Shown here piece after piece: positions 21,174 to 52,680 of a stretch of 64,000 bases of DNA (the stretch's first letter is position 1; the number at the start of each line of letters is the position of its first letter). The notes under the pieces were generated by a model that was given only the letters and a program-made list of their open reading frames with translations, was not told the origin of the DNA and did no database searches. Source of the DNA: Patescibacteria group bacterium. GTDB taxonomy: Bacteria; Patescibacteriota; Minisyncoccia; Phycocordibacterales; UBA9973. A program made the position numbers and the translations under genes. The stretch is from assembly GCA_040390725.1 (NCBI GenBank), contig JAZJXT010000006.1:367-64366 (forward strand), in the 5' to 3' direction.

Positions 21174-21192
21174 ATATTTTTATATAAATTTA

Positions 21193-21726: not shown

Positions 21727-21735
21727 ATAATTTTA

Positions 21736-22122: not shown

Positions 22123-22187
22123 AATTTTTGTTTTGTCCCGATGTCGGACATATGGTTACCATATGTCCGACATCGGGACTATTTTCT

Positions 22188-22923: not shown

Positions 22924-22941
22924 TGTGATGTCATTAAATTT

Positions 22942-38817: not shown

Positions 38818-39591
38818 TTATCTAGAAGTTAAAATTTCTGCTTCGCCGTCGGTGATGGCAATAGTGTTTTCGAAATGCGCGCTGCGCTTGCCATCGGATG
38901 TGCGGAAAGTATAGCCGTCTTTATCGATTGTCACATTTTTGGTGCCATTATTTAACATCGGCTCGATAGCTATGACCATACCTTTTACCAGTTTCGCGCC
39001 CGTGCCCTTTTTGCCAAAATTCGGAATATATGGATCTTCGTGAATTGCTTTACCTACTCCATGCCCGGAAAGAACTTCTACAATGCCGAATTTGCCTTGA
39101 GATTTTACAAAGTTTTCTATAGCGTAGCCAATATCCCCCACTCTATTGCCTACTCGCGCAGCATCGATGCCGACGTGCAATGCTCTCTCAGTAATATCCA
39201 TGAGTTTTTCTGATTGAGCATTGACCTTGCCGACAGGCACCGTGAGAGCCATATCAGTATAGAGTTCTTTGTGCATCAAACCTAAATCAATCGAAACAAT
39301 ATCCCCTTCTTTTAATATTTTTTCTTCACTGGGAATGCCATGCACGACTTCTTCATTTACTGAAACACAAAGAGATGCCGGATAAGGAGTCTTGGCACCT
39401 TCTGGGCGATAATTTAAAAATGCCGGATAATCCCCGCCGTCTCGTATTAATTTTTCCGCATATCTATCCAAATCTTTTGTAGAAATTCCCGGAGCCACCA
39501 TGTCTTTTACTTTATACAAAACAGTCGCGAGCCTCCTGCCCCCTTCACGCAGTATTTCTATTTCTTCCGGTGTTTTTATTATAATTGCCAT
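38818..39591 (-). CDS. map: methionine aminopeptidase type I
   Basis: Pita-bread fold metal ligands and a ~257-aa length. Confidence 0.8.
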   Translation of the reverse strand: MAIIIKTPEEIEILREGGRRLATVLYKVKDMVAPGISTKDLDRYAEKLIRDGGDYPAFLNYRPEGAKTPYPASLCVSVNEEVVHGIPSEEKILKEGDIVSIDLGLMHKELYTDMALTVPVGKVNAQSEKLMDITERALHVGIDAARVGNRVGDIGYAIENFVKSQGKFGIVEVLSGHGVGKAIHEDPYIPNFGKKGTGAKLVKGMVIAIEPMLNNGTKNVTIDKDGYTFRTSDGKRSAHFENTIAITDGEAEILTSR

Positions 39592-39595
39592 AAAT

Positions 39596-40276
39596 TTATG
39601 ATATTACCGTTCCCAAAAAATCTTCCCCATTTAAACATCTTTCCAAATTCGAAATATTTTTTCCGTTTAAAATCATGACTTGCATTTTATCTTCTTCTGC
39701 GAGCTTGGAAGCGATAGGGTCAAAAGGAGAAGAAAGCCCCGGGTTCCATTCACTCGGTATTAACTTTCGATATTCTTGCCAGCTAATTTTCTCTATCTTT
39801 TTTGCATCCGGAAATTTATTCGGATCTTTATCATAAGCATAATCAATATTGGAAAGATTGATAACTTTTTTGGCACCTGTTGAAACTGCCGCTAAAACCG
39901 CATCCAAATCAGTGCTTTGCCCCGGCTCACAAGCCGAGCCTATTATTATAGGTTTTCCTAAATTTAAATTCTGGTGTAAATCCGCAATGACTTTTTCATA
40001 AGCAACATCTCCAAAAATTACTCGCAATAATTCCGCATTTAATTTGAGCGATGCAATACCTATCCAATCCAAATCTACATTTGATGGATTCGATAATTCT
40101 TTCGCAACATTTTGGTATTTCCTGCAAATTTTTCCTCCACCAGTAATGATGACGAATTTTTTTCCTTTTTGTACTTGTGATAAAATTAAATTTTTAAAAT
40201 CTTTCAAAAACCCTGTATCTATTTCTTCAGGAATAATGAGCGAGCCCCCTAATGAAATTATTATTGTTTCTTCCAT
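39596..40276 (-). CDS. pyrH: amino-acid-kinase-family protein, probably UMP kinase (archaeal type)
   Basis: IISLGGSLI ... ITGGG pattern. Confidence 0.45.
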   Translation of the reverse strand: MEETIIISLGGSLIIPEEIDTGFLKDFKNLILSQVQKGKKFVIITGGGKICRKYQNVAKELSNPSNVDLDWIGIASLKLNAELLRVIFGDVAYEKVIADLHQNLNLGKPIIIGSACEPGQSTDLDAVLAAVSTGAKKVINLSNIDYAYDKDPNKFPDAKKIEKISWQEYRKLIPSEWNPGLSSPFDPIASKLAEEDKMQVMILNGKNISNLERCLNGEDFLGTVIS

Positions 40277-40277
40277 G

Positions 40278-40865
40278 TTAATATCCTAAAGCTTTAATAA
40301 TATCTTTTTGCACATCTTCGACGGACTGCTCGCCATTTACGGTAAAAAGTTCATAGCCTTGCTTGCCTTTAAAATAATTCATTGAAGGAATTACATTATT
40401 TACATATTCATCAAATCTTTTTTCAATGCCTTCCCTGGTATCATCAGCCCTGCCTCGCAATAAATTTCTTTTCATTGCTTCTTCTCGGCCTACTTCGATA
40501 TAAATTATTTTTACCTTTTCTCTTCTAAAAAATTTTATCATTTTTTCAAATGATTCTGCCTGTACTAAAGTGCGAGGATAACCATCCGCTATCAAATTTT
40601 TTTCATCAGACAAAGAAGAAGTCAAAATACTAGTGAAAATAGAAGTGGTTAAAAAATCAGGCTGGAGCTCCCCGCGAGCCATAGAGTCTTTTATCAAATA
40701 CCCAACATGATTGCCGGACTCTACTAGCTTCCTGTATTCATTTCCGGGATAAGCGCAAATAGTTTCCTTGGATGTCTTCTCTTTCAAGAAGTCCATCAGG
40801 AGCTTTATTTGTGTGCCCTTGCCGGAACCAACTATACCAAAAAATACTAAAGTTTCACTTTTCAT
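40278..40865 (-). CDS. adk: adenylate kinase
   Basis: GIVGSGKGTQ P-loop and the LID LLRGRADD. Confidence 0.7.
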   Translation of the reverse strand: MKSETLVFFGIVGSGKGTQIKLLMDFLKEKTSKETICAYPGNEYRKLVESGNHVGYLIKDSMARGELQPDFLTTSIFTSILTSSLSDEKNLIADGYPRTLVQAESFEKMIKFFRREKVKIIYIEVGREEAMKRNLLRGRADDTREGIEKRFDEYVNNVIPSMNYFKGKQGYELFTVNGEQSVEDVQKDIIKALGY

Positions 40866-40903
40866 ATATCAACAATACAGGATTTGTGCATAATAATCAA
40901 GAT

Positions 40904-40988
40904 TCCCCTCTTGAGGGGTGGCTCGCTTTAGCGAGACAATACTCCACCTCCCCCGCCTTCAAGGCGGGTACTCCTCAAGAGGAGAATT
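40904..40988 (+). repeat. R6a: ~90-110-nt structured repeat (ttcccctcttgaggggtgg ... ccacctcccc-hairpin-gggtactcctcaagaggagaat)
   Basis: Three same-orientation copies with conserved outer stems and a third hairpin showing compensatory changes (cccgcc/ggcggg here). Confidence 0.55.
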
Positions 40989-41014
40989 AAATCCGAGGTG
41001 AATTTAAAAACAAA

Positions 41015-41599
41015 TTGTGCTTTAATGTATATATGAAAAGAGAAATCATAACAATAGCCGGAGCGCCTGGCAGTGGCAAGTCCAGCACTGCGGACCTAGT
41101 AGCTAAAAACCTTAACTTTCAGCGTTTTTCATCGGGAGATTTCATGAGAAAAATTGCGCTCGAAATGGGGATAACAATAAATGAACTACAAACAGTCGCA
41201 GAGAATGACAAGACAATAGATTACAAAATTGATGAAGAAGTTAAAAAAGCCGGAGAACTAAACAAGGTGGTTATTGATTCCAGATTGGCATTTCACTGGA
41301 TGCCGGGTAGCTTCAAAGTTTACCTCGACCTCCCCCCACAAATAGCCAAGCAAAGAATTTTAAATAATTTAAAAACAAATCTTCTCAGACAAAAAAGTGA
41401 AGGCTCTTCTGATATAGAAGAAATTTACCAAAAAATAACAAGCCGTCTGGAAAGTGAAAAAAAGAGATACAAAGAACTTTATGATATAGACCATATGGAT
41501 AAAAATAATTTCGATCTGATAGTGGACACCGACAAAAATAATTTACAGGAAGTCGTAAAAATAATTACTGCCAAATATCAAGAATGGCTGGAAAAATAA
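41015..41599 (+). CDS. cytidylate-kinase-like P-loop kinase
   Basis: IAGAPGSGKSS Walker A and length. Confidence 0.45.
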   Translation: MCFNVYMKREIITIAGAPGSGKSSTADLVAKNLNFQRFSSGDFMRKIALEMGITINELQTVAENDKTIDYKIDEEVKKAGELNKVVIDSRLAFHWMPGSFKVYLDLPPQIAKQRILNNLKTNLLRQKSEGSSDIEEIYQKITSRLESEKKRYKELYDIDHMDKNNFDLIVDTDKNNLQEVVKIITAKYQEWLEK

Positions 41600-41677
41600 T
41601 AAGCTATCAAGCCTATTACTATCATCACAATAAAAATAATTAAAGTTTTAAAAAAATGTTTTGTAATCATTTTATTT

Positions 41678-41860
41678 TTATCTATAACCCATAAAATACA
41701 AAATCACTGCTAAGATAATAAGAATAAATACCAAGACATAAGGTATATTCCACCACCAATTTTTTTTATCCATGTGTTTTTCAAATTTCTCATAGCCATC
41801 AGTCACGATAAAAACAGGCAGAACCACCATCACAAAATAAAGAAAAAATATTATAGGCAT
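41678..41860 (-). CDS. small two-TM membrane peptide
   Basis: ORF track. Confidence 0.3.
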   Translation of the reverse strand: MPIIFFLYFVMVVLPVFIVTDGYEKFEKHMDKKNWWWNIPYVLVFILIILAVILYFMGYR

Positions 41861-41884: not shown

Positions 41885-43597
41885 TTAATGTAAACTATTA
41901 CTTAAATAAGCCCTGGTCTTTGGGCCAAAATATCCGGAGGCAGGAATTATACCTACAACATTTTGCCATTCAATCATTGCAGCCTTGGTAAGTTTGCCGA
42001 AATTTCCATTTTTGCCAACCTTGGACAGAGCCCTAGCTTCCAGACCTTTATCCTGATGAATCAAAAAATCCTGCAGAGCCATCACTGCCTTACCTTTACT
42101 TCCCAAGCCAAGATTTATTGTAATATCTTTTATTGACGAAACAGCCACAAATTTAAAAGATTTGGAGGGTACCAGAACTGAAGACTTGGCCAGAGAATTT
42201 ACAGTCAACACATTGATATTATCTGATACCGTCGCTGACCCTACGCCTAAAGAATTTTTAAATTTCACATAAACAGTCTGCACTCCATCTCCAGCTGAAA
42301 GTGTCCATGATTTCTTCTGAGTGAAAGGCACCCATGACGCTCCAAGAAAAGAATTATTATTTGCAATCATCATTTGAGTAGCACCCTGACTGAAAAGAGT
42401 TAAAATGACATTAGAAGAAGGAGCCCCAGCCTCGCCATTATTTATCAAAACTGAAGCATGAGTAGTATTTGGTATGTTTAAAATATTTATTGTGGCTGTA
42501 TTTGTTGTTGTCGTACTCGTAGTATCCACAGGTGTTACATCTGGCTCAACATAAGAAGATGTAGTATGACGAATAGTTTGAACACTACCATTTACTACCG
42601 CTGTATCAGTCGGGCCGTCATTAGTCGATGCTACGAACACACCGACATCGTCTCCATTTACTATGCCATCACTGCCACTGTCAACATAAACAGGAATTTC
42701 AAAATTTAAAGTTCTAACATTAGTCGCAGTTGGGGTAATATTTGCTGTAATAAAAATTCTCAAACCTCCATTTGGAATAGCTGTTGTTAATCCGCTCAAA
42801 TTCCATTTTTGATTATTAGATGTCACAGTCATTAAGCCCAAATCAGTATCACTGCCTGCATTGAAAATATTATCACCATCATCTACCCAAGCATGCACAG
42901 CAGAAATATCAGTACTATTTACCGCAGTGCCGATATTTTGCACACCGAGACCTGTCAGCTTGTCATCTCTTCTGTCAAAAACCCCATTTGATGCAGATCC
43001 ACCCGCAGTACCGTTGTCATAAAAAATATCTTCACCAGCTTGATACTTGCCATCACTATTGGCATCACTAAATGCCCATGTATTGTTAACGTTAGACATT
43101 GGTCCAAAAAGAGGACCAGATCCTAATATAAAAGACATTGCGCCACTGGTACAAGTCGTATCGTTGGAAATAAAGACTTGCTCGCCAATATTAAAAGGAG
43201 GGATTAAGCTTTTTGCACAAAGCGAGACAAGTCCGGAAGGACTTTGGCTATCCACGATATCAACAGCACCAAAAGGTACTAAAGGTGCACCCTGATATAT
43301 CGCGGTAAAACTTCCACTACCGTTAGTAGTAGAACCTTGTCCGGAACTTATTCCGTCCGTATCTACCACAGTATCAGCAGTAAAAGAACTTCCATTCCAC
43401 GCATCAGGAATTTTTACATCCATCACCAAGACATTCGTATCACCTCTGTGCACTGTCGCTGTCGGAGCGACGTTGTTCGTAATATTAGTCGCCAAGGAAG
43501 CACTAGCAAGAGACGGGAGTTGAGAAAAAATTAAGCCAGCAATTATAAATACACTTTTTATAACTTTATTCATCAGTAAATTATAACATAATTGCAA
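41885..43597 (-). CDS. large secreted surface protein with a C-terminal peptidoglycan-binding (PG_binding_1-like) domain
   Basis: Signal peptide, a Thr/Asn/Gly/Ser-rich body, and C-terminal KGKAVMALQDFL...GNFGKLTKAAMIEWQ (PG-binding helical motif). Confidence 0.55.
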   Translation of the reverse strand: MQLCYNLLMNKVIKSVFIIAGLIFSQLPSLASASLATNITNNVAPTATVHRGDTNVLVMDVKIPDAWNGSSFTADTVVDTDGISSGQGSTTNGSGSFTAIYQGAPLVPFGAVDIVDSQSPSGLVSLCAKSLIPPFNIGEQVFISNDTTCTSGAMSFILGSGPLFGPMSNVNNTWAFSDANSDGKYQAGEDIFYDNGTAGGSASNGVFDRRDDKLTGLGVQNIGTAVNSTDISAVHAWVDDGDNIFNAGSDTDLGLMTVTSNNQKWNLSGLTTAIPNGGLRIFITANITPTATNVRTLNFEIPVYVDSGSDGIVNGDDVGVFVASTNDGPTDTAVVNGSVQTIRHTTSSYVEPDVTPVDTTSTTTTNTATINILNIPNTTHASVLINNGEAGAPSSNVILTLFSQGATQMMIANNNSFLGASWVPFTQKKSWTLSAGDGVQTVYVKFKNSLGVGSATVSDNINVLTVNSLAKSSVLVPSKSFKFVAVSSIKDITINLGLGSKGKAVMALQDFLIHQDKGLEARALSKVGKNGNFGKLTKAAMIEWQNVVGIIPASGYFGPKTRAYLSNSLH

Positions 43598-43618
43598 AAA
43601 AAAATACGCAAGAATTTA

Positions 43619-43738
43619 TTCCCCTCTTGAGGGGTGGACTTTGTATCCAAAGGACGGGGTGGAAGAATTCATCCACCTCCCCCTGCGGGTACTCCTCAAG
43701 AGGAGAATCAAAAAAAACACCCTCTCGGGTGTTTTTTT
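43619..43738 (+). repeat. R6b: second copy of the structured repeat, with a 3' intrinsic terminator (acaccctctcgggtgttttttt)
   Basis: See R6a. The middle insert actttgtatccaaaggacggggtggaag is shared with R6c. Confidence 0.55.
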
Positions 43739-43758
43739 GTTAATAACAAATTTATTAT

Positions 43759-45711
43759 TTATTCGTTATCCCCTGCCTCCATTTTCATTTTAGCTTTTGT
43801 CTTTGGACCTACGAGACCATCAGCTACGAGATCATGAGCCTTTTGCCATTTCTTTATTACAGAAATAGTCTTTGGACCAAGCTTTCCATCAACTACCAAA
43901 CCAAGATTAAGAAGTTGATTAAGAAGTTTTTGAAGTTCCATAACTGCATCACCTTTACTGCCATTCTTTAGAGTCATTGTGCCCAAATTAAATGGACCAT
44001 GAGCCTTTACGCCTTCGTTGTTTACGCAAAGATCGCCAGTAGAAGTGTTGTATTTATTTCCTCCGGAACATCCTGGAGACATTGTTGTCTCAGTTACTGC
44101 AGGAGTAGTAGGAGTCGCTGCTGTAACTGTAATAGTCACAGGAGTTTCACTCTGTGCTACTGTCGAAGTAGTCGAACCGGAAGGCGTAGGAGGTGTGCAA
44201 GTTGGGTAGTCAGTCGCGCCGTTTGAACAAATAGATGTACATGCTGGATAGTCAGTAGCTCCATTATCACAAACAAAATTATTACTGCTTGGTCGGCGAG
44301 CAACATCTACTGTGCCTGTTCCGGCAGCAGCAAAGTAAAAATCACTTGTATGGTCTGGAGTTGGAGATGCACCTACATTAGTTGAACCCCAAACACCAGC
44401 GCTTTTATATCCCCCATAAACCTTCATAGTGTCAGAGCTAGAAGCCCCTACCAATACCACCGGTAATGCTGAAAGTGATGAATCAATATTGAATAACTTC
44501 GTGATAATCAAAGCGCCTCCGAAAGTTTTCACTCCGCTACCGCTCAAAGAAAGATTATAGTAAGTACCAGAAGAAGCTACATTAGTAAATTTAACTGTTT
44601 GAGCTCCACCTGTGTAATTTACATTGTTACCTGTTGCAGTAGCATCAAGGTTAAATGTAGCAGATGTTCCGCCAAGATTCAAAGTAGTAGATGCTCCTTG
44701 TGTAAGAGTTCCAGAACCTGCGAGAGCAGTTCCGACTGTTAATGTGCCATTATTTGTATATGTTCCATCAACAGTCAAACTAGGGATACTAAGAGTTCCT
44801 GTTAAAGTTTTAGTTGAACCGGACAAAGTGTGCACACCTGAACTTGCAGTAAATGTGCCGGAATTTGCCAAGCTTCCTGCGATACCCACAGTAGCTGCAG
44901 CTGTTTCAGAATATGTTCCGCCGACAGTAACGTCATCACTAAATACAAGAGTAGCAGCCGCATTAACATTCATAGTTCCACTGTCAGTAACAGCGCCAGT
45001 GAAAGTCTTTGTTCCTGTGCCGGAAATTGTCAAAGTTCCTCCGCTAGCAACATTAGTAGTATTAGAAGCAGTAAATGTGTTGCCTGCCATAGTCAATGTA
45101 GCTCCATTAGCAACACTCAATGCGCCAGTAGCAGTAAGTGTATTTGCTCCAGCAGATAATGTGCCGGAATTTACAGCCAAAGTGCCTCCGACTGTAGTTG
45201 TACCAGACAAAGAAACTGTACCAGAACCACCAACTATAACATTGTTATATGTTGTATAAGTACCCATTGCTTGTGCACCTGCACCATTAAAAGTAAGAGT
45301 GCTACCTGTTCCGTCAAAAGTTCCACCAGCACCAAAGTTACCACCTACATTAATTGCACCTGCACTAGTTGTCAAAACAGCGCTTGACCCATTAAAAGTA
45401 ATATTACCACTTACTGTCAATGTTCCACCACTTACTGTCAATGTTCCACCACCAGCAGTATTATTTATAGTAATTGACGATGCGCCTGCAGAACCCGAGG
45501 CTAAAGTGACATTATCTCCTCCAACTATAGTAACTGCATCACCTTCAACTGGGACAATGCCTCCTACCCAAGTAGCCCCTGTATTCCAAGGACCTCCCCC
45601 TCCAGTAGAAGAGATTGCCGAGGCTTCAGCTTTGTTGGCTGAGAAACCAACAAGCATCAAAGCAAAAACAAAGAAAACAGAAACAAAACGAAATATTTTT
45701 TTATTTAACAT
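43759..45711 (-). CDS. large secreted Gly/Thr/Ser-rich (beta-helix-like repeats) surface protein with a C-terminal peptidoglycan-binding domain
   Basis: Signal peptide; repeats GGTLTVSGNITFNG etc.; C-terminal KGDAVMELQKLLN...DGKLGPKTISVIKKWQ. Confidence 0.55.
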   Translation of the reverse strand: MLNKKIFRFVSVFFVFALMLVGFSANKAEASAISSTGGGGPWNTGATWVGGIVPVEGDAVTIVGGDNVTLASGSAGASSITINNTAGGGTLTVSGGTLTVSGNITFNGSSAVLTTSAGAINVGGNFGAGGTFDGTGSTLTFNGAGAQAMGTYTTYNNVIVGGSGTVSLSGTTTVGGTLAVNSGTLSAGANTLTATGALSVANGATLTMAGNTFTASNTTNVASGGTLTISGTGTKTFTGAVTDSGTMNVNAAATLVFSDDVTVGGTYSETAAATVGIAGSLANSGTFTASSGVHTLSGSTKTLTGTLSIPSLTVDGTYTNNGTLTVGTALAGSGTLTQGASTTLNLGGTSATFNLDATATGNNVNYTGGAQTVKFTNVASSGTYYNLSLSGSGVKTFGGALIITKLFNIDSSLSALPVVLVGASSSDTMKVYGGYKSAGVWGSTNVGASPTPDHTSDFYFAAAGTGTVDVARRPSSNNFVCDNGATDYPACTSICSNGATDYPTCTPPTPSGSTTSTVAQSETPVTITVTAATPTTPAVTETTMSPGCSGGNKYNTSTGDLCVNNEGVKAHGPFNLGTMTLKNGSKGDAVMELQKLLNQLLNLGLVVDGKLGPKTISVIKKWQKAHDLVADGLVGPKTKAKMKMEAGDNE

Positions 45712-45944
45712 AAATTTTTTAAACTTAATAATAATGAATAATAATAAAGACCTAAATAAATGCTTGCAATAAGCACTAATTATTATAACAAATAGAAAAA
45801 TACAAGGATAGTAAAGGTGTGGATAAGTCAGCTTGTCTATGTCCTACTTGTCATGACTGCTTTTCTTTGCCGCGATTATTAAAAGAATAATGGCAATAGC
45901 TAGCAATGCCCCCAATATATATATATTAATCATAACATTTGTAC

Positions 45945-46142
45945 TCATAAGTTAGTTTCATTTTTTCTACTAAGAACATACATCGACCAAAAGATTATTG
46001 ACAAAATAAATCCGGAAATTACAACAGCATAATTTACCTCGACACCCATCAAGCTCGTAAGGAATACAGACGCAAAGAAAACTTGTCCTAAATCTTTACA
46101 TACTTCTCCTAAGGCTTTTGGATTTGCAAGTGAATTAAACAT
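45945..46142 (-). CDS. small membrane protein
   Basis: ORF track; 2 TM. Confidence 0.3.
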   Translation of the reverse strand: MFNSLANPKALGEVCKDLGQVFFASVFLTSLMGVEVNYAVVISGFILSIIFWSMYVLSRKNETNL

Positions 46143-46211
46143 AATCCAAGTATAACATAAAAATTAAAAAACCACTCAGTGAGAGTGGTTTTTTAATTAG
46201 AATAAATTTAT

Positions 46212-46709
46212 TTATTCCTGCACCAAAACAGTCGCTACGTTTTGGTATTTATCACAATCCACAAGAAGAGTTTTGGATTTCAAGTAAACATCAGGCAAAA
46301 CCACTATCTTGAAACTCCATGGCTTTATAGTAAATGTCGTCCCCACCTTTATTGTCCGAGTATTTGGAGACCTGTTATCCATCATAATACCAGTATTATC
46401 TTTATATGTAACGTTAAAAGGATGTGCCTGACATGTCTTATCAAGCTGAATTCTCCTGTCAGCATACTTTACTAAAGCGTTTGCGTATGACAAAGTTATA
46501 GCTGAACTTGTAACAGGACTAGGCTCAAGGTCTTGAACTGATTCCGGCTCAGTCCCTACCGTAGCTGTATTTTCAGCCGGATTTGTTACATCCGGAGCTA
46601 CCGCTTGCTTATTTTTAGACATAAATAATAAAACTAATACAATAACAACAACTACTCCTGCCCAAACCCACATAGATTTATTTTTTTCCATAAAATTTTT
46701 TACCACCAC
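46212..46709 (-). CDS. secreted/anchored hypothetical protein
   Basis: N-terminal TM/signal; ORF track. Confidence 0.35.
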   Translation of the reverse strand: MVVKNFMEKNKSMWVWAGVVVVIVLVLLFMSKNKQAVAPDVTNPAENTATVGTEPESVQDLEPSPVTSSAITLSYANALVKYADRRIQLDKTCQAHPFNVTYKDNTGIMMDNRSPNTRTIKVGTTFTIKPWSFKIVVLPDVYLKSKTLLVDCDKYQNVATVLVQE

Positions 46710-46812
46710 AGCCTTACGCTTAGGCAGTTATGTTAATTTTTAATTAATAAAACATTTATAATACTTTAATTATATCATACATAATGCCGTATCAACAAGT
46801 AAAATATTACAG

Positions 46813-46904
46813 CCTCACCCCCTTAATCCCCTCTCCGGAGTACCAGAGAGGGGAAACCAAATTCAAACACAAAAAAGCACCCATTTCTGAGTGCTTTTTT
46901 GTTT
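46813..46904 (+). repeat. R5 inverted-repeat end (cctcacccc-N5-cccctctcc-loop-gagagggg) plus R4 terminator repeat copy 1
   Basis: Inverted partner at 47617-47637. Direct repeat of aaaccaaat.caaacacaaaaaagcacccatttctgagtgcttttttgttt at 47638-47690. Confidence 0.6.
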
Positions 46905-46974
46905 GCTTGTTGAAAAATTTTCCACAGATATATTGCTTTTATTGTTAAAAAGTGTATAGTAATAATGTACTCGT

Positions 46975-47058
46975 GAACCGTAAGGTTTATTCGGCTAAGG
47001 AATTCCATACGCCGCAAGCGAGTACTACAAAGACGCCGTCGCTATGACGGCTTTTTTG
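46975..47058 (+). ncRNA. R3c: partial, degenerate copy of the R3 element, convergent with the 3' end of paralog X2, with its own terminator (gccgtcgctatgacggctttttt)
   Basis: cCGTAAGgtttaTTCGGCTAAGGAatTCC aligns to the cGTAAGccccTTATCGGCTAAGGAtcTTCC of R3a. Confidence 0.4.
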
Positions 47059-47455
47059 TTTGCTTTTCTTTCTTTTTCCAAACGCTCAAGAATGTAATAT
47101 TTCCATCACCTATCCTGCGCAAAACAACAGAAACAGTGGCTCCACTTTTTCCGGCGATTTCTTTTAATTCCCAAATCTCAAAATATTTACCGAGCGGTTT
47201 TGAATACTGCTGTTTTTTATAATCAAAAATACTTTTTGCGTTTTTAATTACAGGAATCACCAACGGAAGCAACCCCATTTTAAATTGTTGCTCTTTAATA
47301 TTTCTTTGTTTGCCGTGGCTATCATATCTTAAATGATAAAATCCTTTAGAATTAAAAATAATCTCTTCATTTAAAATAGGGCAATGCACTTTGCCAATGG
47401 TTTTATACCAAGCCCCCTTTTCTTTCAAAAATTCTTGAAACGATTGTTTTTCCAC
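47042..47455 (-). CDS. hypothetical protein, paralog family X (second copy)
   Basis: See 13132-13578. Confidence 0.5.
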   Translation of the reverse strand: MEKQSFQEFLKEKGAWYKTIGKVHCPILNEEIIFNSKGFYHLRYDSHGKQRNIKEQQFKMGLLPLVIPVIKNAKSIFDYKKQQYSKPLGKYFEIWELKEIAGKSGATVSVVLRRIGDGNITFLSVWKKKEKQTKKPS

Positions 47456-47496
47456 AAAATAGATTATAGCATAATAAGAAAAATATTTTATAAAAC

Positions 47497-47593
47497 AAAA
47501 AATCCACCTTTCGGTGGGTTCTTTGTTATGCCTGGCTTCAAGCTTAGGAATACCTTAGCTGAACGGGGCTTACGCCCACAGGCACACTTATAA
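47497..47593 (-). ncRNA. R3b: full copy of the R3 structured element, co-directional with and immediately upstream of paralog X2, ending in the terminator cccaccgaaaggtgg + U-run
   Basis: ~80% identity to 13027-13129 including the gggcgtaagcccc hairpin. Confidence 0.5.
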
Positions 47594-47616
47594 TCTAACA
47601 TAAAATTTTTAATTTT

Positions 47617-47690
47617 GGAGAGGGGTCAGGGGTGAGGAAAAACCAAATACAAACACAAAAAAGCACCCATTTCTGAGTGCTTTTTTGTTT
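47617..47690 (+). repeat. R5 inverted-repeat end (ggagaggggtcaggggtgagg) plus R4 terminator repeat copy 2
   Basis: Reverse complement of the first half of 46813-46853; R4 ~95% identical to 46854-46904. Confidence 0.6.
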
Positions 47691-47736
47691 CAATTTATCC
47701 GGAATTGATAACCGCTATAACTTAACAAACTATAGA

Positions 47737-50700
47737 CTAGCTAGTTAGGCCAACAGAATTTGTTGGGTAATTATTCAAGTATAAAGTGTTGTTTGTTGTC
47801 TCATTTCCTGTTGCACCACCTGCTGTGTCAGTCCAGACAAATGTTGCAGCTGCACCAACAGAACTTGAGATAGAGCTCGAGTGAGCACCACCAGAGTTAG
47901 GAACAGCTGAAACTGGGACAAAGATCTTGAAGGTAATAGTTGTTCCGTGTGCAATAAGGTAACCACCGTTATTAAAGGTGATTGTACTATTACCACTAGA
48001 GAACGAACCAGCTGTTGTTTCAAGAACAGCACCTGAAGCATCTTTTACAAAAATACTTGTTGTAGAAGAAGAAACTCCAGTTCCAGATGTAGAATCTGCA
48101 CCATCAGCAAGAGTTGCGTCAGTTGTAGATACATGAATATCTAAGCTCTGTAGAGTGATGTCTCCTGCTTGATCAGCGCTAACTGTAACGTTCATAGCGT
48201 TTTCGTTACCAACAGCTAGGACACCACCAGCAGCAACTACTGCGACAACTGGCTTTGAACCAACAACTCTCATAGTAGGAGTTGAGACAGTGATAGTACC
48301 AGTGTCTGAACTCGCTCCTCCGATAGTGTAGTAAACCTTTGTCATAGTAAGTTGTGAAGTGCCGTTATCAGAAGTGTATGCACCGATACCAGCAGCACCG
48401 ACAGATCCATAAGAAATCATTACAGGGAATGTAGCACCAGAAGAACCATTTGGAACAGCAAGGTTAAGACCTGTGATGTCAAATGTGTTGCCAGTAGTGT
48501 TAACATTACCAGTTTGTCCTCCTACAGTGATAGCAGTGATAGGATCAGTTGCGCCACTTGTAGAGAATGTGATTTCAGTAATATTTGCATTTCCGTTTGA
48601 AGATACAAATTTGAATGAACCTGTAGTTGCATTACTTACTCCTGTAGCTCCCGCTGCAACATACTGAGAAGTAGTTGAACTTGAAGTAACCAATGTAGGT
48701 GTAGCGACAGTACCAGTAGCCATTGTTATTGTTTGACCAGTAACATCTGTAAGACTAGTATTGCCATTTGCAAAGATAGAAACATTTGAACTTGAACCGA
48801 TACCTTGTGGAGCAAGCTTAGTAAGTATTGTACCGTAGTTTGCACCTCCAAGATCAGCCATCAAATCAATTGTCTTTGTTGCACCTGGTGCAAGAGTAAA
48901 GTCAACTGAGAAAGTATCAGTACCAGTTGGAGCAATTGGATTTGAACCAGAACCTGAAGTTTCTGAAGTTCTCAATCCGTTTACATAAGTGATAGCTGTA
49001 GCTGTCTTACCAGCGACAGTGATAGCAGCACCTAATGCACAACCTCCAGTACCTGCTGTAGAAACAGTTGTAGTAAGTTGTGTTGAACTTGCAACTGCAG
49101 TTACTGTACCAACTAGGTCTACTGTAGGACAATCAACAGTGATCACATCACCAGCATTGAAGCTAGCAGAAGATGATACGTTGATAGCGTGACCAGCACC
49201 TGCTGTAAAGTCACTACCAGCAGCAACCAATGTAGGAGTAGCAAATGTTGTTGTAACTCTCAAGCTAGTAACACGAACAGATTCAGATGTACTCTGGTTC
49301 TGCATAGTGTAAGAGCCAAGTTTTACGTTTGCAGTATTTGCATTCATAACTTGATTACCATAGCTAGCGTTCTTTCCAACGTTAAGAGTACCAGTTTGAA
49401 TGTTCAAAGTGTTACCTGTAACGCTTGGGATAGCCAAGCCATTGTGTGAGTTCATACCTTCAGCACCAGTAGAACTTCCTACTAGGCTAGCGTGAAGAGT
49501 ACCAGCTGTGTAGTTGATACTTGTGCTGTTTCGGATATCTGCACGGATTTCCAAATAACTATCAACACCTGCAGGCACAATCATTTGTGAGCCTGGTGTC
49601 ATATCTATTTGAGTACCGGAAGTACCAGTTGCAGTTTGAGTACCAATTTGTGAACCATTAAAGTAAGCAGTAACGTTCTGAAGAGTTGTTGTACTTCCAG
49701 AAGAAACTGTTCCACTAATAGTTGGTGTGAAAGAAAGCGTGTTTACCTTCATATCTTCACCGTAAGCATGCAATTTGAACTTAGCGATAGCTACGTTTGT
49801 AGCACCACCAGTCACTTTAGTCATAGCTTGGAAAGTAGGGTCAATAACAGCTGTCATTGAACCTGCGTTTATAGTGATTGAAGAGTAAGTTGCGTTTGTT
49901 ACACCTCCGAATACAACGTTGATTCCGACTTGAGAGTCGTAAACCATCATATCAGAAGCTAATTGAACTGAAAGTTGAATAGTTCTTGCAGAACCTTTTA
50001 CGACATCTGCGCGAACATCCAAAGTGTGGTTACCAGTAGTAAGTTCAACTGGCATTGCAGACAAGTCAAAGGTTACATAATTTGAACCATTAACTGTTGT
50101 CATTGTACCTGTAGAACCTAGAGCAAGTCCGTCTTTGTATAGTTTTACATTCGCTAGAGCGTCAGTAGGAGCAGAACCGATAACTCGGAAGTTTGCAGCC
50201 TTGAGCCATAGAGAGTGTGTACCTACAACATTGATAGGAGCTGACCATACTGTGTAAGCAGTAGTACCAGGGTTAACTGTAGGGTTAACAGGTAGAGTAT
50301 TTGTAGTGAAGCTTACTGAAGCAGCATTTGATCCAGTAGCGACATACATAGTATTACCAACCAAGTTAACATTTGTAGCTGCACCGCCAGTAACTGTGAA
50401 AGAAGTCATATTTACGCCAAGACTGTAAGCAGTGTTACCGACATTAAGCACGTCAGCTCTTACGGAAATAGTTCTTGAACCACTAACCATAAGATTAAGA
50501 CTACTCATAGTAAGATCACCGTTATTGTTGAAAGAGTAACCATCTGTCAAACGTGTTACACCATCGTATAGGTAAACGTTTGTAAGAGTACTCTGATCAG
50601 AAATACCAGTTCTCTTTAACATAACAGAGTTAACTGTTCCAGTTCCTGTGAATGTAACGTGTAACAAGTCAGCAGTAGCTTGACCGGCAACGATTGTGCC

Positions 50701-51273
50701 AGCAGCTGGGTTGTCTGTTGCAAGCATTACAGTAACAGGACCAGTTTGAGAAGCAGTAGAACTTGCTGCGTAGCAAGCTCCGCCAGTTACAGGACTAAAT
50801 CCTGCAGCTGAAGTACAACCAGGTGGAAGGAATGTGTTTGCCATTACGCTAGCACATGACATGCCAGTTGTTGAACTGTATCCAGAAGCTGAAGTACAGC
50901 CTGCTGGGAAGTTACCTGATACTGAACCGTGAGCGACTAATGAAGCTCGTGACATTGGTCCGAATACTCCGTCAGCTGTAAGGCCGGCAGAAGCTTGGAA
51001 CATTTTCACTGCAGCCTTAGTTGCGTTTCCGAAGTATGTTGTTTCCATACCTGCAGAACCAGCACTAACACCGTCAACGTGGAAACCCTTTTCATTAAGC
51101 ATCTGTTGAAGACACATAACTTGAGAATTTCTCATTCCATATTTCAAAGTCATAGTGAAGCCAGTACAATTTGCTGCGTTGACTTCTGTTGCATTTACAG
51201 CAACAACACCAACGAACATAACTGCCGCCATCACAACTCCTGAAAGGAATTTTGATTTAAATAAATTACTCAT
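47737..51273 (-). CDS. giant (1178 aa) secreted Thr/Ser/Gly/Val-rich surface protein with an N-terminal peptidoglycan-binding domain
   Basis: Signal peptide, then CTGFTMTLKYGMRNSQVMCLQQMLNEKGF...ATKAAVKMFQASAGLTADGVFGP (PG_binding_1-like), followed by >1000 aa of low-complexity beta-rich sequence. Confidence 0.55.
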   Translation of the reverse strand: MSNLFKSKFLSGVVMAAVMFVGVVAVNATEVNAANCTGFTMTLKYGMRNSQVMCLQQMLNEKGFHVDGVSAGSAGMETTYFGNATKAAVKMFQASAGLTADGVFGPMSRASLVAHGSVSGNFPAGCTSASGYSSTTGMSCASVMANTFLPPGCTSAAGFSPVTGGACYAASSTASQTGPVTVMLATDNPAAGTIVAGQATADLLHVTFTGTGTVNSVMLKRTGISDQSTLTNVYLYDGVTRLTDGYSFNNNGDLTMSSLNLMVSGSRTISVRADVLNVGNTAYSLGVNMTSFTVTGGAATNVNLVGNTMYVATGSNAASVSFTTNTLPVNPTVNPGTTAYTVWSAPINVVGTHSLWLKAANFRVIGSAPTDALANVKLYKDGLALGSTGTMTTVNGSNYVTFDLSAMPVELTTGNHTLDVRADVVKGSARTIQLSVQLASDMMVYDSQVGINVVFGGVTNATYSSITINAGSMTAVIDPTFQAMTKVTGGATNVAIAKFKLHAYGEDMKVNTLSFTPTISGTVSSGSTTTLQNVTAYFNGSQIGTQTATGTSGTQIDMTPGSQMIVPAGVDSYLEIRADIRNSTSINYTAGTLHASLVGSSTGAEGMNSHNGLAIPSVTGNTLNIQTGTLNVGKNASYGNQVMNANTANVKLGSYTMQNQSTSESVRVTSLRVTTTFATPTLVAAGSDFTAGAGHAINVSSSASFNAGDVITVDCPTVDLVGTVTAVASSTQLTTTVSTAGTGGCALGAAITVAGKTATAITYVNGLRTSETSGSGSNPIAPTGTDTFSVDFTLAPGATKTIDLMADLGGANYGTILTKLAPQGIGSSSNVSIFANGNTSLTDVTGQTITMATGTVATPTLVTSSSTTSQYVAAGATGVSNATTGSFKFVSSNGNANITEITFSTSGATDPITAITVGGQTGNVNTTGNTFDITGLNLAVPNGSSGATFPVMISYGSVGAAGIGAYTSDNGTSQLTMTKVYYTIGGASSDTGTITVSTPTMRVVGSKPVVAVVAAGGVLAVGNENAMNVTVSADQAGDITLQSLDIHVSTTDATLADGADSTSGTGVSSSTTSIFVKDASGAVLETTAGSFSSGNSTITFNNGGYLIAHGTTITFKIFVPVSAVPNSGGAHSSSISSSVGAAATFVWTDTAGGATGNETTNNTLYLNNYPTNSVGLTS

Positions 51274-51687
51274 AATATTAATTTTTAATTCCGCTTAAGA
51301 ATTTTATAAAATGTTTAACTTTTATATAAATTCAAAATCGGGATTGTGTGGTTGTAATTTAGTTTCGACTTGTCATAATTTTTTTATTAAAAAATGACAA
51401 AACTAAAACCACACTGTTAATCTAATATCTCGCTTTTTAACGCGAGACAATTTAGACACAAACTTGATAACCATCAAAAACAGAAAACAATTTTCGTATT
51501 CTATTTTCAATGATCTTGTATCGTGTGCGCAAACTTTTTCCATAACAGAAAAAGCTTTGCCCAAGACACATAACTATTATAGTACTTGCACTATAAATAG
51601 AGCAAGTAAAATTGTGGATAAACCCCTTAATAAATAAAGAGTTCGCCACGTTTTTGATATTAGCAAATTTAGAACCTTTAAGCAAAT

Positions 51688-52506
51688 TTAGATATTATAT
51701 TTTGACCACCTCTTCTCCCCTGTTTTTTTTAACAAATTGTCCTTTACCATAGAGATGAGTTCGCGCTGTAAAGTTTTCTCTCCGCATGTCCTTAAGACAC
51801 CTTGGGCGTTATCTTTGATGTCCTTTATTGTCGCTCCACCTTTGTCCTTTATAATTTTTATTATCTCTTCATGGCGTTGTTTTTTTAGATTATTGAAAGC
51901 CTCTCCCCCCGCCCTCTCCAAAGTAGAGGGAGCTTTAATTTTGTCCGATATCGCTTTCATTAAAGTGTGTCCTTTTTGAAGACCAAAATTTATAGATTGA
52001 TGTCCGTTAGAAACTTCTTTCACCCTCTCCTTGATAAGGAGAGGGTTGGGGTGAGGTGAATTTTGAAATTTATTTTCTACTTCTTCTTCCCCAAAAAAAT
52101 CCTCCAATAAAACAGAATTTCTTTGCGTATCCAACACCTCTGAATTTAAAAATTCTTTCATTTTTAAAAACTCTCTTTTTAAAATAGTAGAATTCATTTC
52201 TGAAATTAAATTCACGGTCAAAGCTATGTCCAATAAAGATATTATGGCAGAAATTTTTTGATCTAAATGTGTATGTAAGGAATCTGTGTCCGATATAATT
52301 TCCGTACCTAATGTCCTTAATTTATTACGTAATGGCTCTTCTTTGTCCATTATGTCCGTTACCATATAAAGAGCTATTATAAGCTTATTTGTTTTTGTGT
52401 AGGACATCAACATTCCTCCTGTATTCCCATGTCTCCTGAGCACTGAAAGAGCTGATGTCGCATAGCTGTCTTTGAGATTTTTATTTTCATCTAACATGTT
52501 GTCCAT
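51688..52506 (-). CDS. hypothetical protein carrying in-frame R5-like palindromic segments
   Basis: ORF track. ccctctccttgataaggagagggttggggtgagg at 52023-52057 lies inside the ORF and encodes ..HPNPLLIKER.. Confidence 0.35.
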   Translation of the reverse strand: MDNMLDENKNLKDSYATSALSVLRRHGNTGGMLMSYTKTNKLIIALYMVTDIMDKEEPLRNKLRTLGTEIISDTDSLHTHLDQKISAIISLLDIALTVNLISEMNSTILKREFLKMKEFLNSEVLDTQRNSVLLEDFFGEEEVENKFQNSPHPNPLLIKERVKEVSNGHQSINFGLQKGHTLMKAISDKIKAPSTLERAGGEAFNNLKKQRHEEIIKIIKDKGGATIKDIKDNAQGVLRTCGEKTLQRELISMVKDNLLKKTGEKRWSKYNI

Positions 52507-52538
52507 TATATATAAAAGACATAGAAATGCAAATCTTA

Positions 52539-52650
52539 TTCCCCTCTTGAGGGGTGGACTTTGTACTCAAAGGACGGGGTGGAGGTTTTCGGGTTAATAA
52601 ATTCTCCACCTCCCCCCGACAGTAGTCGGGGTACTCCTCAAGAGGAGAAT
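52539..52650 (+). repeat. R6c: third copy of the structured repeat
   Basis: ttcccctcttgaggggtggactttgtactcaaaggacggggtggagg...ccacctccccccgacagtagtcggggtactcctcaagaggagaat. Confidence 0.55.
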
Positions 52651-52680
52651 TAAAAAAAATATGTTAAAATACATTTACTT

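What the first reader, a model, noticed from the sequence alone, without database searches (positions are those of the whole stretch)
41885..51273. Locus of three very large secreted low-complexity proteins, each anchored by a peptidoglycan-binding domain
The 570-aa and 650-aa proteins carry a C-terminal PG_binding_1-like helical domain, and the 1178-aa protein carries one at the N-terminus right after the signal peptide. All have long Thr/Ser/Gly/Asn-rich beta-type repeat bodies. They are interspersed with small membrane peptides (41678-41860, 45945-46142, plus an unlisted ~35-aa hydrophobic ORF on the minus strand at about 45843-45950) and with R6 and R5 repeats. In a reduced genome, this much coding capacity spent on wall-anchored fibrous proteins suggests adhesins for cell-cell or host attachment, perhaps an episymbiotic lifestyle. 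Repeat-flanked positions suggest strain-variable content.
Basis: partly seen in the sequence, partly recalled or inferred. Interest (0 to 1): 0.55.

Follow-up and report, generated by a model that had tools for sequence, protein, structure and literature searches.

The report
Peptidoglycan-anchored surface proteins of a Patescibacterium
Three secreted proteins that clip onto the cell wall are real, but they differ: the largest is a conserved, apparently very highly expressed wall-coat protein found across a whole class of ultra-small bacteria and may be their unidentified surface-layer protein, while the other two are variable accessory surface proteins.

Summary
Three minus-strand genes (570, 650 and 1178 aa) each encode a signal peptide, a Gly/Ala/Ser/Thr/Asn/Val-rich all-beta body and one PG_binding_1 domain, C-terminal in the first two and N-terminal in the third.

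The bodies are unrelated to each other and are folded, not low-complexity.
- The 1178-aa protein is a string of six beta-sandwich domains.
- The 650-aa protein is a roughly 20-residue-per-turn beta-solenoid.
- The 570-aa protein is a mosaic of Ig-like modules.

The 1178-aa gene is not strain-variable.
- It belongs to a large family (at least 782 database clusters) typical of Paceibacteria (Parcubacteria).
- It sits at a fixed position (recA-ftsK <> 272-aa gene > this gene) in 47 loci.
- Family lengths are 1030-1302 aa, and variants are 99.8-100% identical within one well-sampled population.
- In 36 genomes it shows far stronger codon bias than recA or ftsK, which points to very high expression.

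I read it as the major wall-coat protein, possibly the surface-layer protein of this class. No gene has been assigned to that layer in the papers I could search.

The two smaller proteins lie in a variable stretch downstream. Relatives carry other cargo there on the same anchor tail, so an adhesin role is plausible for these two.

The parts
47737..51273 (-). C1178: 1178-aa conserved wall protein (NCBI MES2023819.1, 'peptidoglycan-binding protein'). Signal peptide, N-terminal PG_binding_1, two Cys-loops, six beta-sandwich domains.
   Evidence: ORF. Family of at least 782 clusters at 40-61% identity. AlphaFold pLDDT 80. Synteny. Codon bias.
50929..51159 (-). C1178 PG_binding_1 three-helix anchor (residues 39-115)
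   Evidence: Pfam 45.8 bits. PDB endolysin 7rum at E 3.9e-5. Helices 50-61, 83-95 and 106-114 in the model.
50773..50898 (-). C1178: two 15-residue Cys-loops, CTSxxG[YF]SxxTGxxC (residues 126-140 and 153-167), between anchor and body
   Evidence: Sequence. The motif is in 89 of the 120 best family hits, 1.7 copies on average. Small hairpins of low confidence in the model.
49390..50742 (-). C1178 domains D1-D3 (residues 178-628): the most conserved part of the protein
   Evidence: Identity to 42 homologs is 64%, 54% and 56%, against 41% for the anchor. D1/D2/D3 are remotely homologous (hhalign 79-92%).
47740..49389 (-). C1178 domains D4-D6 (residues 629-1178): more variable distal half, with a roughly 80-aa lineage-specific insert at residues ~680-760
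   Evidence: Identity 40%, 39% and 31%; occupancy of the insert is 0.30. Many homologs align by BLAST only over the first 54-57% of the query.
47655..47688 (-). Intrinsic terminator of C1178 (15-bp stem followed by a T run); part of the 57-nt unit repeated at 46848-46904
51274..51687 (-). 414-nt non-coding spacer upstream of C1178 (550-900 nt in relatives). Contains promoter-like TTGCTC-18-TATAAT near 51605-51575 and hairpins. Not alignable between relatives.
   Evidence: Sequence read. Gene tables of L002-L004. Alignment at 48% column identity.
51688..52506 (-). 272-aa protein with no Pfam match; conserved upstream partner of the C1178 family, divergent from ftsK
   Evidence: tblastn hit in 47 loci, always in the same place. 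No Pfam, NCBIfam or PHROG match.
43759..45711 (-). B650: 650-aa accessory surface protein (MES2023815.1). Signal peptide, beta-solenoid, disordered Cys/Thr/Pro linker, Cys-loop, C-terminal PG_binding_1.
44302..45615 (-). B650 beta-solenoid body (residues 33-470): strands of 3-4 residues, three per coil of about 20 residues
   Evidence: AlphaFold pLDDT mostly above 90. Sequence homologs are 'beta strand repeat-containing' proteins of Bacteroidota, Ignavibacteria and others, several carrying the PF18962 sorting domain. Fold matches to Ag43, tapirin, VacA and tailspikes are weak and not significant.
43777..44271 (-). B650 tail module: Cys-rich linker and Cys-loop (residues 481-562) plus PG_binding_1 (residues 578-645)
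   Evidence: Pfam 48.5 bits. The tail alone recurs at 51-74% identity on proteins of 262-364 aa downstream of C1178 homologs in relatives.
41885..43597 (-). A570: 570-aa (probably 562-aa, ATG at 43573) accessory surface protein (MES2023814.1, 'hypothetical'). A mosaic of modules.
   Evidence: Only 12 whole-protein relatives. Module-level relatives.
42563..43039 (-). A570 central domain (residues ~187-345), shared with Falkowbacteria and Wolfebacteria proteins and with P0317
   Evidence: P0317 (575 aa) also ends in PG_binding_1, with 54% identity in the tail.
42194..42481 (-). A570 85-aa Ig-like module (residues ~373-468), the unit of tandem arrays in giant proteins elsewhere
   Evidence: 6001 library proteins at E <= 1e-3, with up to 38 matched stretches per protein. 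Carriers hit Big_13, Big_12 and Big_1.
41900..42124 (-). A570 PG_binding_1-type anchor (residues 492-566)
   Evidence: Pfam 18.6 bits, below the cut-off. 57 bits and hhalign 98.6% against the family anchor profile.
46212..46709 (-). 165-aa membrane-anchored protein with its own strong terminator at 46162-46198; a recurrent downstream neighbour of the C1178 family
   Evidence: Homolog downstream in 20 loci. TM segment at residues 15-31. Terminator.
47042..47455 (-). 137-aa ORF bracketed by the duplicated 57-nt terminator unit; no homolog in related loci; looks like an insertion
45844..46142 (-). Two overlapping small hydrophobic ORFs (65 aa and 34 aa) upstream of B650
   Evidence: Identical in an independent assembly, L001. 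No homologs found in the related loci.
41578..41860 (-). Two small membrane peptides (60 aa with two TM segments; 30 aa with one) downstream of A570
   Evidence: Weak tblastn matches in L029, L006, L065 and L052.
43610..43717 (.). Hairpin repeat element between B650 and A570; other copies at 40900-40996 and 52533-52659
   Evidence: Fold -46.3 kcal/mol, z -4.2.

Best explanation
The locus combines one core gene with a variable tail.

Core gene (C1178). This is the local member of a conserved, very highly expressed protein family typical of Paceibacteria (Parcubacteria). After Sec export and signal-peptide cleavage, its N-terminal PG_binding_1 three-helix bundle and two disulfide-type Cys-loops hold it non-covalently on the peptidoglycan. 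Six beta-sandwich domains extend outward. The wall-proximal D1-D3 are strongly constrained and probably make the self-contacts or wall contacts. The distal D4-D6 are freer to vary. I read it as the main proteinaceous coat of the cell wall, that is, an S-layer-like or major envelope protein.

Variable tail (B650 and A570). Downstream lies a stretch where different genomes carry different cargo on the same Cys-loop plus PG_binding_1 tail. Here the cargo is a beta-solenoid (B650) and an Ig-module mosaic (A570). These are accessory surface proteins, most likely for binding other cells, polymers or surfaces.

Shown: domain content, folds, conservation, synteny and codon bias.

Inferred: export, wall binding, orientation, abundance, lattice or coat formation, and ligand binding.
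For: Anchor domain in all three proteins.

Folds: C1178 is a six-domain beta-sandwich string at pLDDT 80. B650 is a beta-solenoid plus linker plus three-helix anchor at pLDDT 84.

Family size and conservation: at least 782 clusters, with the top 120 hits at E < 1e-200 and 40-61% identity. D1-D3 are more conserved than the anchor.

Fixed position: recA-orf120-ftsK <> orf272 > gene, in 47 loci.

Narrow length range and near-identity within a population.

Codon bias:
- In the window, C1178 has Nc 39.8, GGT 0.63 against 0.32, AAC 0.54 against 0.24, and ACC+ACG 0.03 against 0.25 in other genes.
- In 36 genomes the family's median Nc is 39.0, against 48.2 for ftsK, 45.4 for recA and 51.0 for orf272. 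It is lower than ftsK in 36 of 36 loci and lower than recA in 33 of 36.
- G/C-ending four-fold codons are 0.10 against 0.31. orf272 lies on the same strand, so strand bias is not the cause.

Transcription unit: monocistronic layout with a strong terminator and a long upstream spacer.

Other properties: mature pI about 5, with few Cys outside the loops.

Literature:
- Cryo-EM shows an apparent S-layer on a Parcubacterium, and that paper notes three peptidoglycan-binding proteins in its genome.
- A 2026 review says S-layers are reported in some species and, in the passages I retrieved, does not name a gene.
- A 2017 paper says the structure of the CPR envelope is unclear.

Variable tail: the B650 and A570 bodies are absent from all 68 related genome loci, while the tail recurs on other small proteins. 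B650's body is homologous to surface cargo of other phyla that carry different sorting or anchor domains.
Against: - There is no direct evidence of abundance, of surface location or of a lattice.
- Codon bias is only a proxy for expression.
- Known S-layer proteins are usually poorly conserved between genera. This family is about as conserved as ftsK, which could instead mean a specific conserved partner.
- PG_binding_1 is not a documented S-layer anchor.
- Foldseek against the PDB gave only generic multi-Ig hits at TM about 0.1, and no S-layer protein appeared among the 50 hits shown.
- The genome scan used three peptide patterns, so the family's true taxonomic range and copy number are only partly known. 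Three of the genomes returned have a second, partial or full paralog (L033/L040, L039/L067, L059/L066).
- No ligand is known for B650 or A570. A570 shows ordinary codon usage.
Confidence: 0.5

Rival explanations
1. One reading: all three, including the 1178-aa protein, are strain-variable adhesins used to attach to a host or partner cell in an episymbiotic lifestyle.
For: - The proteins are secreted, wall-anchored and beta-rich.
- B650's body is homologous to beta-strand-repeat surface proteins of other phyla, and it weakly resembles Ag43 and tapirin adhesins.
- A570 carries an Ig-like module typical of giant adhesin-like proteins.
- Downstream content differs between relatives.
- Patescibacteria are often episymbionts.
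Against: For C1178: it is conserved at 40-61% identity across many genera that presumably have different partners, it sits at a fixed core position, its length range is narrow, and it is 99.8-100% identical within a population. Codon bias stronger than recA fits a bulk structural protein better than a specific adhesin. No DNA repeats drive variation.
Confidence: 0.25
2. C1178 is a conserved wall-associated scaffold that works with the cell-division or wall-growth machinery, for example as a spacer or ruler in the envelope. That would explain its fixed place beside ftsK and its housekeeping-level conservation, rather than it being an outer coat.
For: - Invariant neighbourhood recA-ftsK <> orf272 > gene in 47 loci.
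- D1-D3 are more conserved than the anchor.
- High expression signature.
Against: - It is transcribed divergently from ftsK, with its own long spacer and terminator, so there is no operon link.
- Synteny in small, little-rearranged genomes is weak functional evidence.
- A 115-kDa six-domain extracellular string has no counterpart among known division proteins (my knowledge, not tested here).
Confidence: 0.12
3. The proteins are cell-wall hydrolases or remodelling enzymes, as the database name 'Cell wall lytic activity' and the usual company kept by PG_binding_1 would suggest.
For: PG_binding_1 is typical of endolysins, SleB, L,D-transpeptidases and a DD-carboxypeptidase. One homolog carries that name.
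Against: Pfam, NCBIfam, PHROGs and the PDB find no catalytic domain in any of the three, or in 43 family members. The matches cover only the binding module.
Confidence: 0.03
4. C1178 is an alpha-2-macroglobulin-like protease trap anchored on the wall.
For: Foldseek lists bacterial and animal alpha-2-macroglobulins and complement C3/C5 among the hits (E 1e-10 to 1e-7).
Against: TM-scores are about 0.1, so the match means only 'many beta-sandwiches in a row'. There is no thioester CxEQ motif. No A2M Pfam domains were found in 43 members.
Confidence: 0.02

Closest known systems
S-layer proteins of monoderm bacteria built as an N-terminal wall anchor plus a string of Ig-like domains (Sap/EA1 of Bacillus anthracis, SbsB/SbsC of Geobacillus)
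   Same: - Sec signal peptide.
- N-terminal non-covalent wall anchor followed by about six beta-sandwich 'beads'. The SbsC and Sap architectures are described in the abstracts listed.
- Acidic pI.
- One monocistronic gene with signs of very high expression.
   Different: - The anchor is PG_binding_1 plus Cys-loops, not SLH or an SCWP-binding domain.
- No sequence match, and no specific fold match shown.
- Much higher conservation between genera.
- Lattice formation is untested.
PG_binding_1 (PF01471) modules of wall enzymes: SleB/SleC, phage endolysins (phiKZ gp144, AP3, LysT84), Streptomyces albus DD-carboxypeptidase 1LBU, L,D-transpeptidases
   Same: The three-helix peptidoglycan-binding module, at both sequence and structure level.
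   Different: Here the module carries no enzyme. It carries large non-catalytic beta bodies instead, and it is accompanied by 15-residue Cys-loops.
Beta-solenoid surface proteins: 'beta strand repeat-containing' cargo of Bacteroidota type IX secretion, autotransporter passengers (Ag43), tapirins
   Same: B650's body is sequence-homologous to the Bacteroidota and Ignavibacteria proteins (E 1e-80 to 1e-20), and it has the regular three-strand coil of this fold.
   Different: - B650 has no PF18962 sorting domain and no autotransporter barrel.
- The wall attachment is a C-terminal PG_binding_1 tail.
- Structural similarity to Ag43 and tapirin is not significant.
Bacterial Ig-like (Big) repeat giant surface proteins
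   Same: A570 residues ~373-468 are one copy of an 85-aa module that forms arrays of up to 38 copies in proteins of 1000-5000 aa. Three of these module carriers were checked against Pfam and all hit Big_13 (P0269, P0332, P0324).
   Different: A570 has a single copy, combined with a rarer central domain and a PG_binding_1 tail. The module itself is below Pfam detection in A570.

Membership tests
Pfam PF01471 PG_binding_1 | Score at or above the curated cut-off (23 bits) for the three-helix PG-binding domain | tested here: met
   B650 scores 48.5 bits and C1178 45.8 bits. A570 scores 18.6 bits, below the cut-off, but reaches 57 bits and hhalign 98.6% against a profile of the C1178-family anchor. 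Its relative P0317 passes at 24.1 bits, with 54% tail identity.
PG_binding_1 fold | Three-helix bundle superposable on solved PG-binding modules | tested here: met
   B650 model against the SleB N-domain 6tci: rmsd 1.2 A, TM 0.90. Several endolysins at about 1 A. C1178 model has helices at 50-61, 83-95 and 106-114. A570 was not modelled.
S-layer protein | Self-assembles into a two-dimensional paracrystalline lattice covering the cell | not testable with these tools
   Needs cryo-ET or in vitro assembly. Only monomer prediction was available.
S-layer protein | One of the most abundant proteins of the cell | tested here: inconclusive
   Indirect only. Codon bias is stronger than recA and ftsK in 33-36 of 36 genomes and in the window. 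No expression data.
S-layer protein (monoderm type) | SLH, CWB2 or another recognised S-layer anchoring domain | tested here: not met
   Pfam on C1178 and 42 homologs finds only PG_binding_1 and PG_binding_3.
Sortase-anchored 'cell wall surface anchor family protein' (a database name of homologs) | C-terminal LPXTG-type sorting signal | tested here: not met
   No LPXTG-like motif in any of the three proteins.
Type IX secretion cargo | C-terminal sorting domain PF18962 | tested here: not met
   Absent from B650, although present in several of its body homologs.
Autotransporter adhesin | C-terminal beta-barrel translocator domain | tested here: not met
   No such Pfam match. The C-terminus of B650 is a three-helix PG-binding domain.
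Alpha-2-macroglobulin / thioester proteins | Thioester motif CxEQ and A2M domains | tested here: not met
   No motif. No A2M Pfam hit in 43 members.
Peptidoglycan hydrolase | A recognisable catalytic domain (amidase, muramidase, peptidase, transglycosylase) | tested here: not met
   None found by Pfam, NCBIfam, PHROGs or PDB sequence search. The matches cover only the binding module.

The most novel reading that the evidence does not exclude
The C1178 family is the so far unassigned S-layer (major envelope lattice) protein of Paceibacteria/Parcubacteria. It would be a new type of S-layer protein, tethered directly to peptidoglycan by PG_binding_1 plus Cys-loops instead of SLH/SCWP. The neighbouring variable slot would display interchangeable cargo on the same tether.
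Probability: 0.3. Interest if true: 0.7.

Novelty: new variant of a known kind. Interest (0 to 1): 0.5.

Why it matters
The cell envelope of Patescibacteria (CPR), a very large and mostly uncultured bacterial phylum, is poorly understood.
- Electron microscopy shows an S-layer-like coat on some members, but the papers I could search name no gene for it in the Paceibacteria class. Proteins with SLH domains have been reported only in a different class, the Absconditicoccaceae.
- A single conserved gene with the marks of very high expression, a wall anchor and a six-domain body is a concrete candidate. It can be tested in the few available co-cultures and by metaproteomics.
- It would also make a useful marker gene and surface antigen for this class.
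- The shared anchor tail with swappable cargo suggests how these tiny cells diversify their surface.

Tried and rejected
- Foldseek with the whole C1178 model returned only generic multi-Ig proteins (hydin, mastigoneme, A2M, integrins) at TM about 0.1, which is not informative about function.
- B650's body found no significant structural match in the PDB or BFVD.
- The exact-sequence contig look-up failed for the 1164-aa version of C1178. For B650 it returned only a 3.2-kb identical contig, so no close strain was available for direct comparison of this locus.
- The upstream spacer of C1178 does not align between relatives, so no conserved leader RNA could be argued. Rfam found nothing in the locus.
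- The promoter-like count does not exceed shuffles (28 against 30.8), so promoter calls are by eye only.
- BLAST self-comparison found no internal repeats.
- PHROG, NCBIfam and Pfam gave nothing for orf272, orf137 or orf165.
- Literature searches for an assigned Patescibacteria S-layer gene, or for this family by name, found nothing specific. One search failed on term length.
- Rejected readings: hydrolase, alpha-2-macroglobulin, sortase substrate, autotransporter and T9SS cargo (see the membership tests).


Full report
**What is there.** The window is from a low-GC (31-42%) Patescibacteria genome. NCBI holds the same proteins from a 130-kb MAG contig labelled 'Patescibacteria group bacterium'.
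- A570, 41885-43597. The TTG start gives 570 aa; the deposited annotation uses the ATG at 43573, giving 562 aa.
- B650, 43759-45711.
- C1178, 47737-51273.

Each begins with a Lys-rich N-terminus, a hydrophobic core and an AxA-type site (ASA/S, AEA/S, VNA/A), and none has a later transmembrane segment. I judged this by eye and hydropathy and ran no signal-peptide predictor. SecY is in the window at 18638-19909. The mature proteins would be 56, 60 and 115 kDa with pI 4.8-5.1.

**The anchor.** PG_binding_1 is above Pfam's cut-off in B650 (48.5 bits, residues 587-642) and C1178 (45.8 bits, residues 49-107), and below it in A570 (18.6 bits against 23).
- I built profiles from the anchor domains of the C1178 family and of B650's relatives. 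A570 residues 492-566 score 57 and 34 bits against them, with hhalign probabilities of 98.6% and 97%.
- A relative with the same tail (P0317, 54% identical over 80 residues) passes Pfam.
- PDB sequence hits for B650 and C1178 are, apart from one marginal match (E 0.043), binding modules of endolysins, SleB, an L,D-transpeptidase-family protein and the 1LBU carboxypeptidase.
- The B650 model superposes on the SleB N-domain at 1.2 A.

**The bodies are three different things.** Apart from the anchor, BLAST finds no similarity between the three proteins and no internal repeats. DNA-level tandem repeats are trivial.
- C1178 was modelled with 42 homologs (pLDDT 80). After the anchor it is all-beta: about six beta-sandwich domains of 130-230 residues. 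D1-D3 are only remotely related to each other (hhalign 79-92%).
- B650 (pLDDT 84, body mostly above 90) is a regular solenoid of 3-4-residue strands, three per coil of about 20 residues. It is followed by a disordered Cys/Thr/Pro linker, the Cys-loop and the three-helix anchor.
- A570 is a mosaic. It has a central domain shared with Falkowbacteria and Wolfebacteria proteins. It has one copy of an 85-aa Ig-like module that elsewhere forms arrays of up to 38 copies (6001 library hits). And it has the anchor.

Composition is strongly skewed (56-68% G/A/S/T/N/V against 36%), but these are folded domains. 'Low-complexity repeat proteins' is therefore only loosely true.

**C1178 is a conserved core gene.**
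- The word-indexed search returned at least 782 clusters. The best 120 have E < 1e-200, and nearly all are full-length proteins of 1000-1340 aa (two are 770-780-aa entries, one labelled partial). They are 40-61% identical, and 102 of the 120 carry PF01471.
- A pattern scan of one genome per species found 68 loci. The record titles with a specific taxon are mostly Nomurabacteria, Staskawiczbacteria and Paceibacterota/Paceibacteria. About 25 more carry an 'uncultured Candidatus Saccharibacteria' bin title, which I take to be a generic label.
- In 47 of 72 related loci the arrangement is the same as in the window: recA, a 120-aa gene and ftsK on one strand, and divergently a 272-aa protein with no family match, a long non-coding spacer, then the C1178 homolog. 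Loci without the full arrangement include several where little or no upstream flank is held.
- Across these genomes the gene is 1030-1302 aa with the anchor always N-terminal.
- D1-D3 (54-64% identity to 42 homologs) are more conserved than the anchor (41%) or D4-D6 (31-40%). This protein also has a lineage-specific insert of about 80 aa.
- In the best-sampled relative (P0042, on more than 52 contigs), the full-length variants are 99.8-100% identical and 1140-1146 aa long.

**C1178 carries the signature of very high expression.**
- In the window its Nc is 39.8. Only one short gene of 230 codons is lower (35.0), and another of 186 codons ties. Typical genes have Nc 45-55.
- It nearly abolishes C/G-ending Thr, Ala, Ser, Gly and Val codons, prefers GGT (0.63 against 0.32), and switches Asn to AAC (0.54 against 0.24).
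- I then tested the family. In 36 genomes the homolog has a lower Nc than ftsK in 36 of 36 and lower than recA in 33 of 36. Medians are 39.0 against 48.2 and 45.4.
- G/C-ending four-fold codons are 0.10 against 0.31. orf272, on the same strand, is unbiased (Nc 51.0), which rules out strand composition as the cause.
- The gene has its own strong terminator (15-bp stem, 47655-47688) and a 414-nt upstream spacer (550-900 nt in relatives) with a good -35/-10 pair by eye. The spacer is not alignable across relatives.

**B650 and A570 sit in a variable slot.**
- None of the 68 related genome loci contains B650's solenoid or A570's N-terminal body.
- What recurs is B650's last 70-155 residues (Cys-loop plus anchor, 51-74% identical). 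It appears on unrelated small proteins of 262-364 aa, 1-4 kb downstream of the C1178 homolog, in about ten genomes.
- A 165-aa membrane-anchored protein (46212-46709) recurs downstream in 20 loci.
- In one relative, adk and map follow the C1178 homolog within 2.7 kb. In the window they are 6.9 kb away. The stretch from orf137 to A570 therefore looks like variable filling between conserved flanks.
- B650's body is homologous to 'beta strand repeat-containing' proteins of Bacteroidota, Ignavibacteria and others. Some of these end in the type IX sorting domain, so the same cargo is carried on a different address label.
- B650 also shows strong codon bias (CAI rank 3 of 60). A570 does not (rank 38 of 60).

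**What it most likely is.** My best reading has two parts. C1178 is the major wall-coat protein of this class, S-layer-like. B650 and A570 are accessory surface proteins mounted on the same peptidoglycan tether and are plausibly adhesive.
- The architecture (N-terminal wall anchor plus about six beta-sandwich beads, acidic pI, a single highly expressed gene) parallels the Bacillus/Geobacillus S-layer proteins. The anchor is different, and no SLH domain is present.
- A cryo-EM study reports an apparent S-layer on a Parcubacterium and notes three peptidoglycan-binding proteins in its genome, without assigning them.
- A 2017 genome paper says S-layer genes are lacking and that the envelope is unclear in all CPR studied to date.
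- A 2026 review mentions S-layers in some species and, in the passages I retrieved, names no gene.

The lattice, the abundance, the surface location and peptidoglycan binding are all inferred, not shown.

**Arguments against, and alternatives.**
- The unusually high conservation is atypical for S-layer proteins. It leaves room for a conserved envelope scaffold with a specific partner.
- A general adhesin role cannot be excluded.
- Hydrolase, alpha-2-macroglobulin, sortase-substrate, autotransporter and T9SS-cargo readings were tested and failed on defining features.

**Repeats and small ORFs.**
- The hairpin element has conserved inverted arms and a variable core, and folds at -46 kcal/mol (z -4.2). 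It has three copies in the 64-kb window, at 40.9, 43.6 and 52.5 kb. One copy lies inside the conserved ftsK/orf272 spacer, so the copies do not delimit a mobile island.
- A 57-nt terminator unit is duplicated on both sides of orf137, which has no homolog in relatives and looks inserted.
- The small hydrophobic ORFs exist. Only the pair downstream of A570 has weak matches in relatives.

**Verdict.** The genes are already deposited with automatic names, so the proteins themselves are not new. What is new is the recognition that the largest belongs to a conserved, highly expressed, uncurated family (about 1000 residues without Pfam coverage) that is a concrete candidate for the unassigned envelope or S-layer protein of Paceibacteria, next to a slot of swappable cargo on a shared PG_binding_1 tail.

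Noticed in passing
window 40900-40996, 43610-43717, 52533-52659; L061 11285-11304: A 100-125 nt intergenic hairpin element with conserved inverted arms (ATTCCCCTCTTGAGGGGTGG ... GGGTACTCCTCAAGAGGAGAAT) and a variable, internally paired core. Only three copies occur in the window, all within 12 kb. The exact 20-mer arm also occurs in a Nomurabacteria MAG. It looks MITE- or REP-like; its function is unknown.
   Followed up: partly
window 46848-46904 and 47634-47690, bracketing 47042-47455: A 57-nt unit containing a strong terminator hairpin is duplicated (95% identical) on both sides of a 137-aa ORF. That ORF has no family match and no homolog in 72 related loci. It looks like a small cassette inserted just after the C1178 terminator.
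   Followed up: partly
window 51688-52506 (-): A 272-aa protein without any Pfam, NCBIfam or PHROG match always sits between ftsK and the C1178 homolog (47 loci, 25-65% identity). By eye its C-terminus resembles a winged-helix DNA-binding domain, so it may be a regulator of the downstream gene. This was not tested.
   Followed up: partly
window 46212-46709 (-): A 165-aa protein with an N-terminal membrane anchor, a Pro/Thr/Glu linker and a beta-rich C-domain. A homolog lies downstream of the C1178 homolog in 20 related loci. Function unknown.
   Followed up: partly
Weak tblastn matches to one or both occur near the end of the surface-protein stretch in L006, L029, L052 and L065.
   Followed up: partly
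window 43573-43600, 47456-47480, 46143-46165: Extended -10-like boxes (TGNTATAAT or TGTTATACT) lie only 6-8 nt upstream of the start codons of A570 (ATG at 43573), orf137 and orf65, with no Shine-Dalgarno sequence. This suggests leaderless transcripts. Seen by eye only.
   Followed up: no
C1178 residues 126-167; B650 residues 481-562; relatives P0122, P0125, P0127, P0129, P0133, P0137: A 15-residue Cys-loop motif, C-x4-G-[YF]-S-x2-T-G-x2-C, occurs in 1-3 copies beside PG_binding_1 domains in Patescibacteria proteins. It is not covered by Pfam. It could be a disulfide-stapled spacer or a second wall-binding element.
   Followed up: partly
L002 11924-19500: In one relative the C1178 homolog is followed directly by a Wzy_C (O-antigen ligase-like) gene, sugar epimerases and glycosyltransferases. 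This hints that the surface protein or the wall polymer it sits on is glycosylated.
   Followed up: no
window 36000-38774 (-): A 924-aa ORF with a weak match to the TrwB_AAD_bind domain (type IV secretion coupling protein; E 4.8e-7), a few kb from the locus.
   Followed up: no
window 1-183, 5669-5702, 22524-22922, 18638-23385, 38818-40865: Context features of the window:
- the 5' end of the 23S rRNA at the window edge;
- a DUF805b RNA motif;
- a tmRNA gene;
- part of the ribosomal-protein/secY cluster.

adk and map are not beside secY. They lie next to the surface-protein locus.
   Followed up: no
L033/L040, L039/L067, L059/L066: Three of the genomes returned by the scan carry a second locus matching only the N-terminal or only the C-terminal half of C1178, so paralogs or split versions of the family exist.
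   Followed up: no
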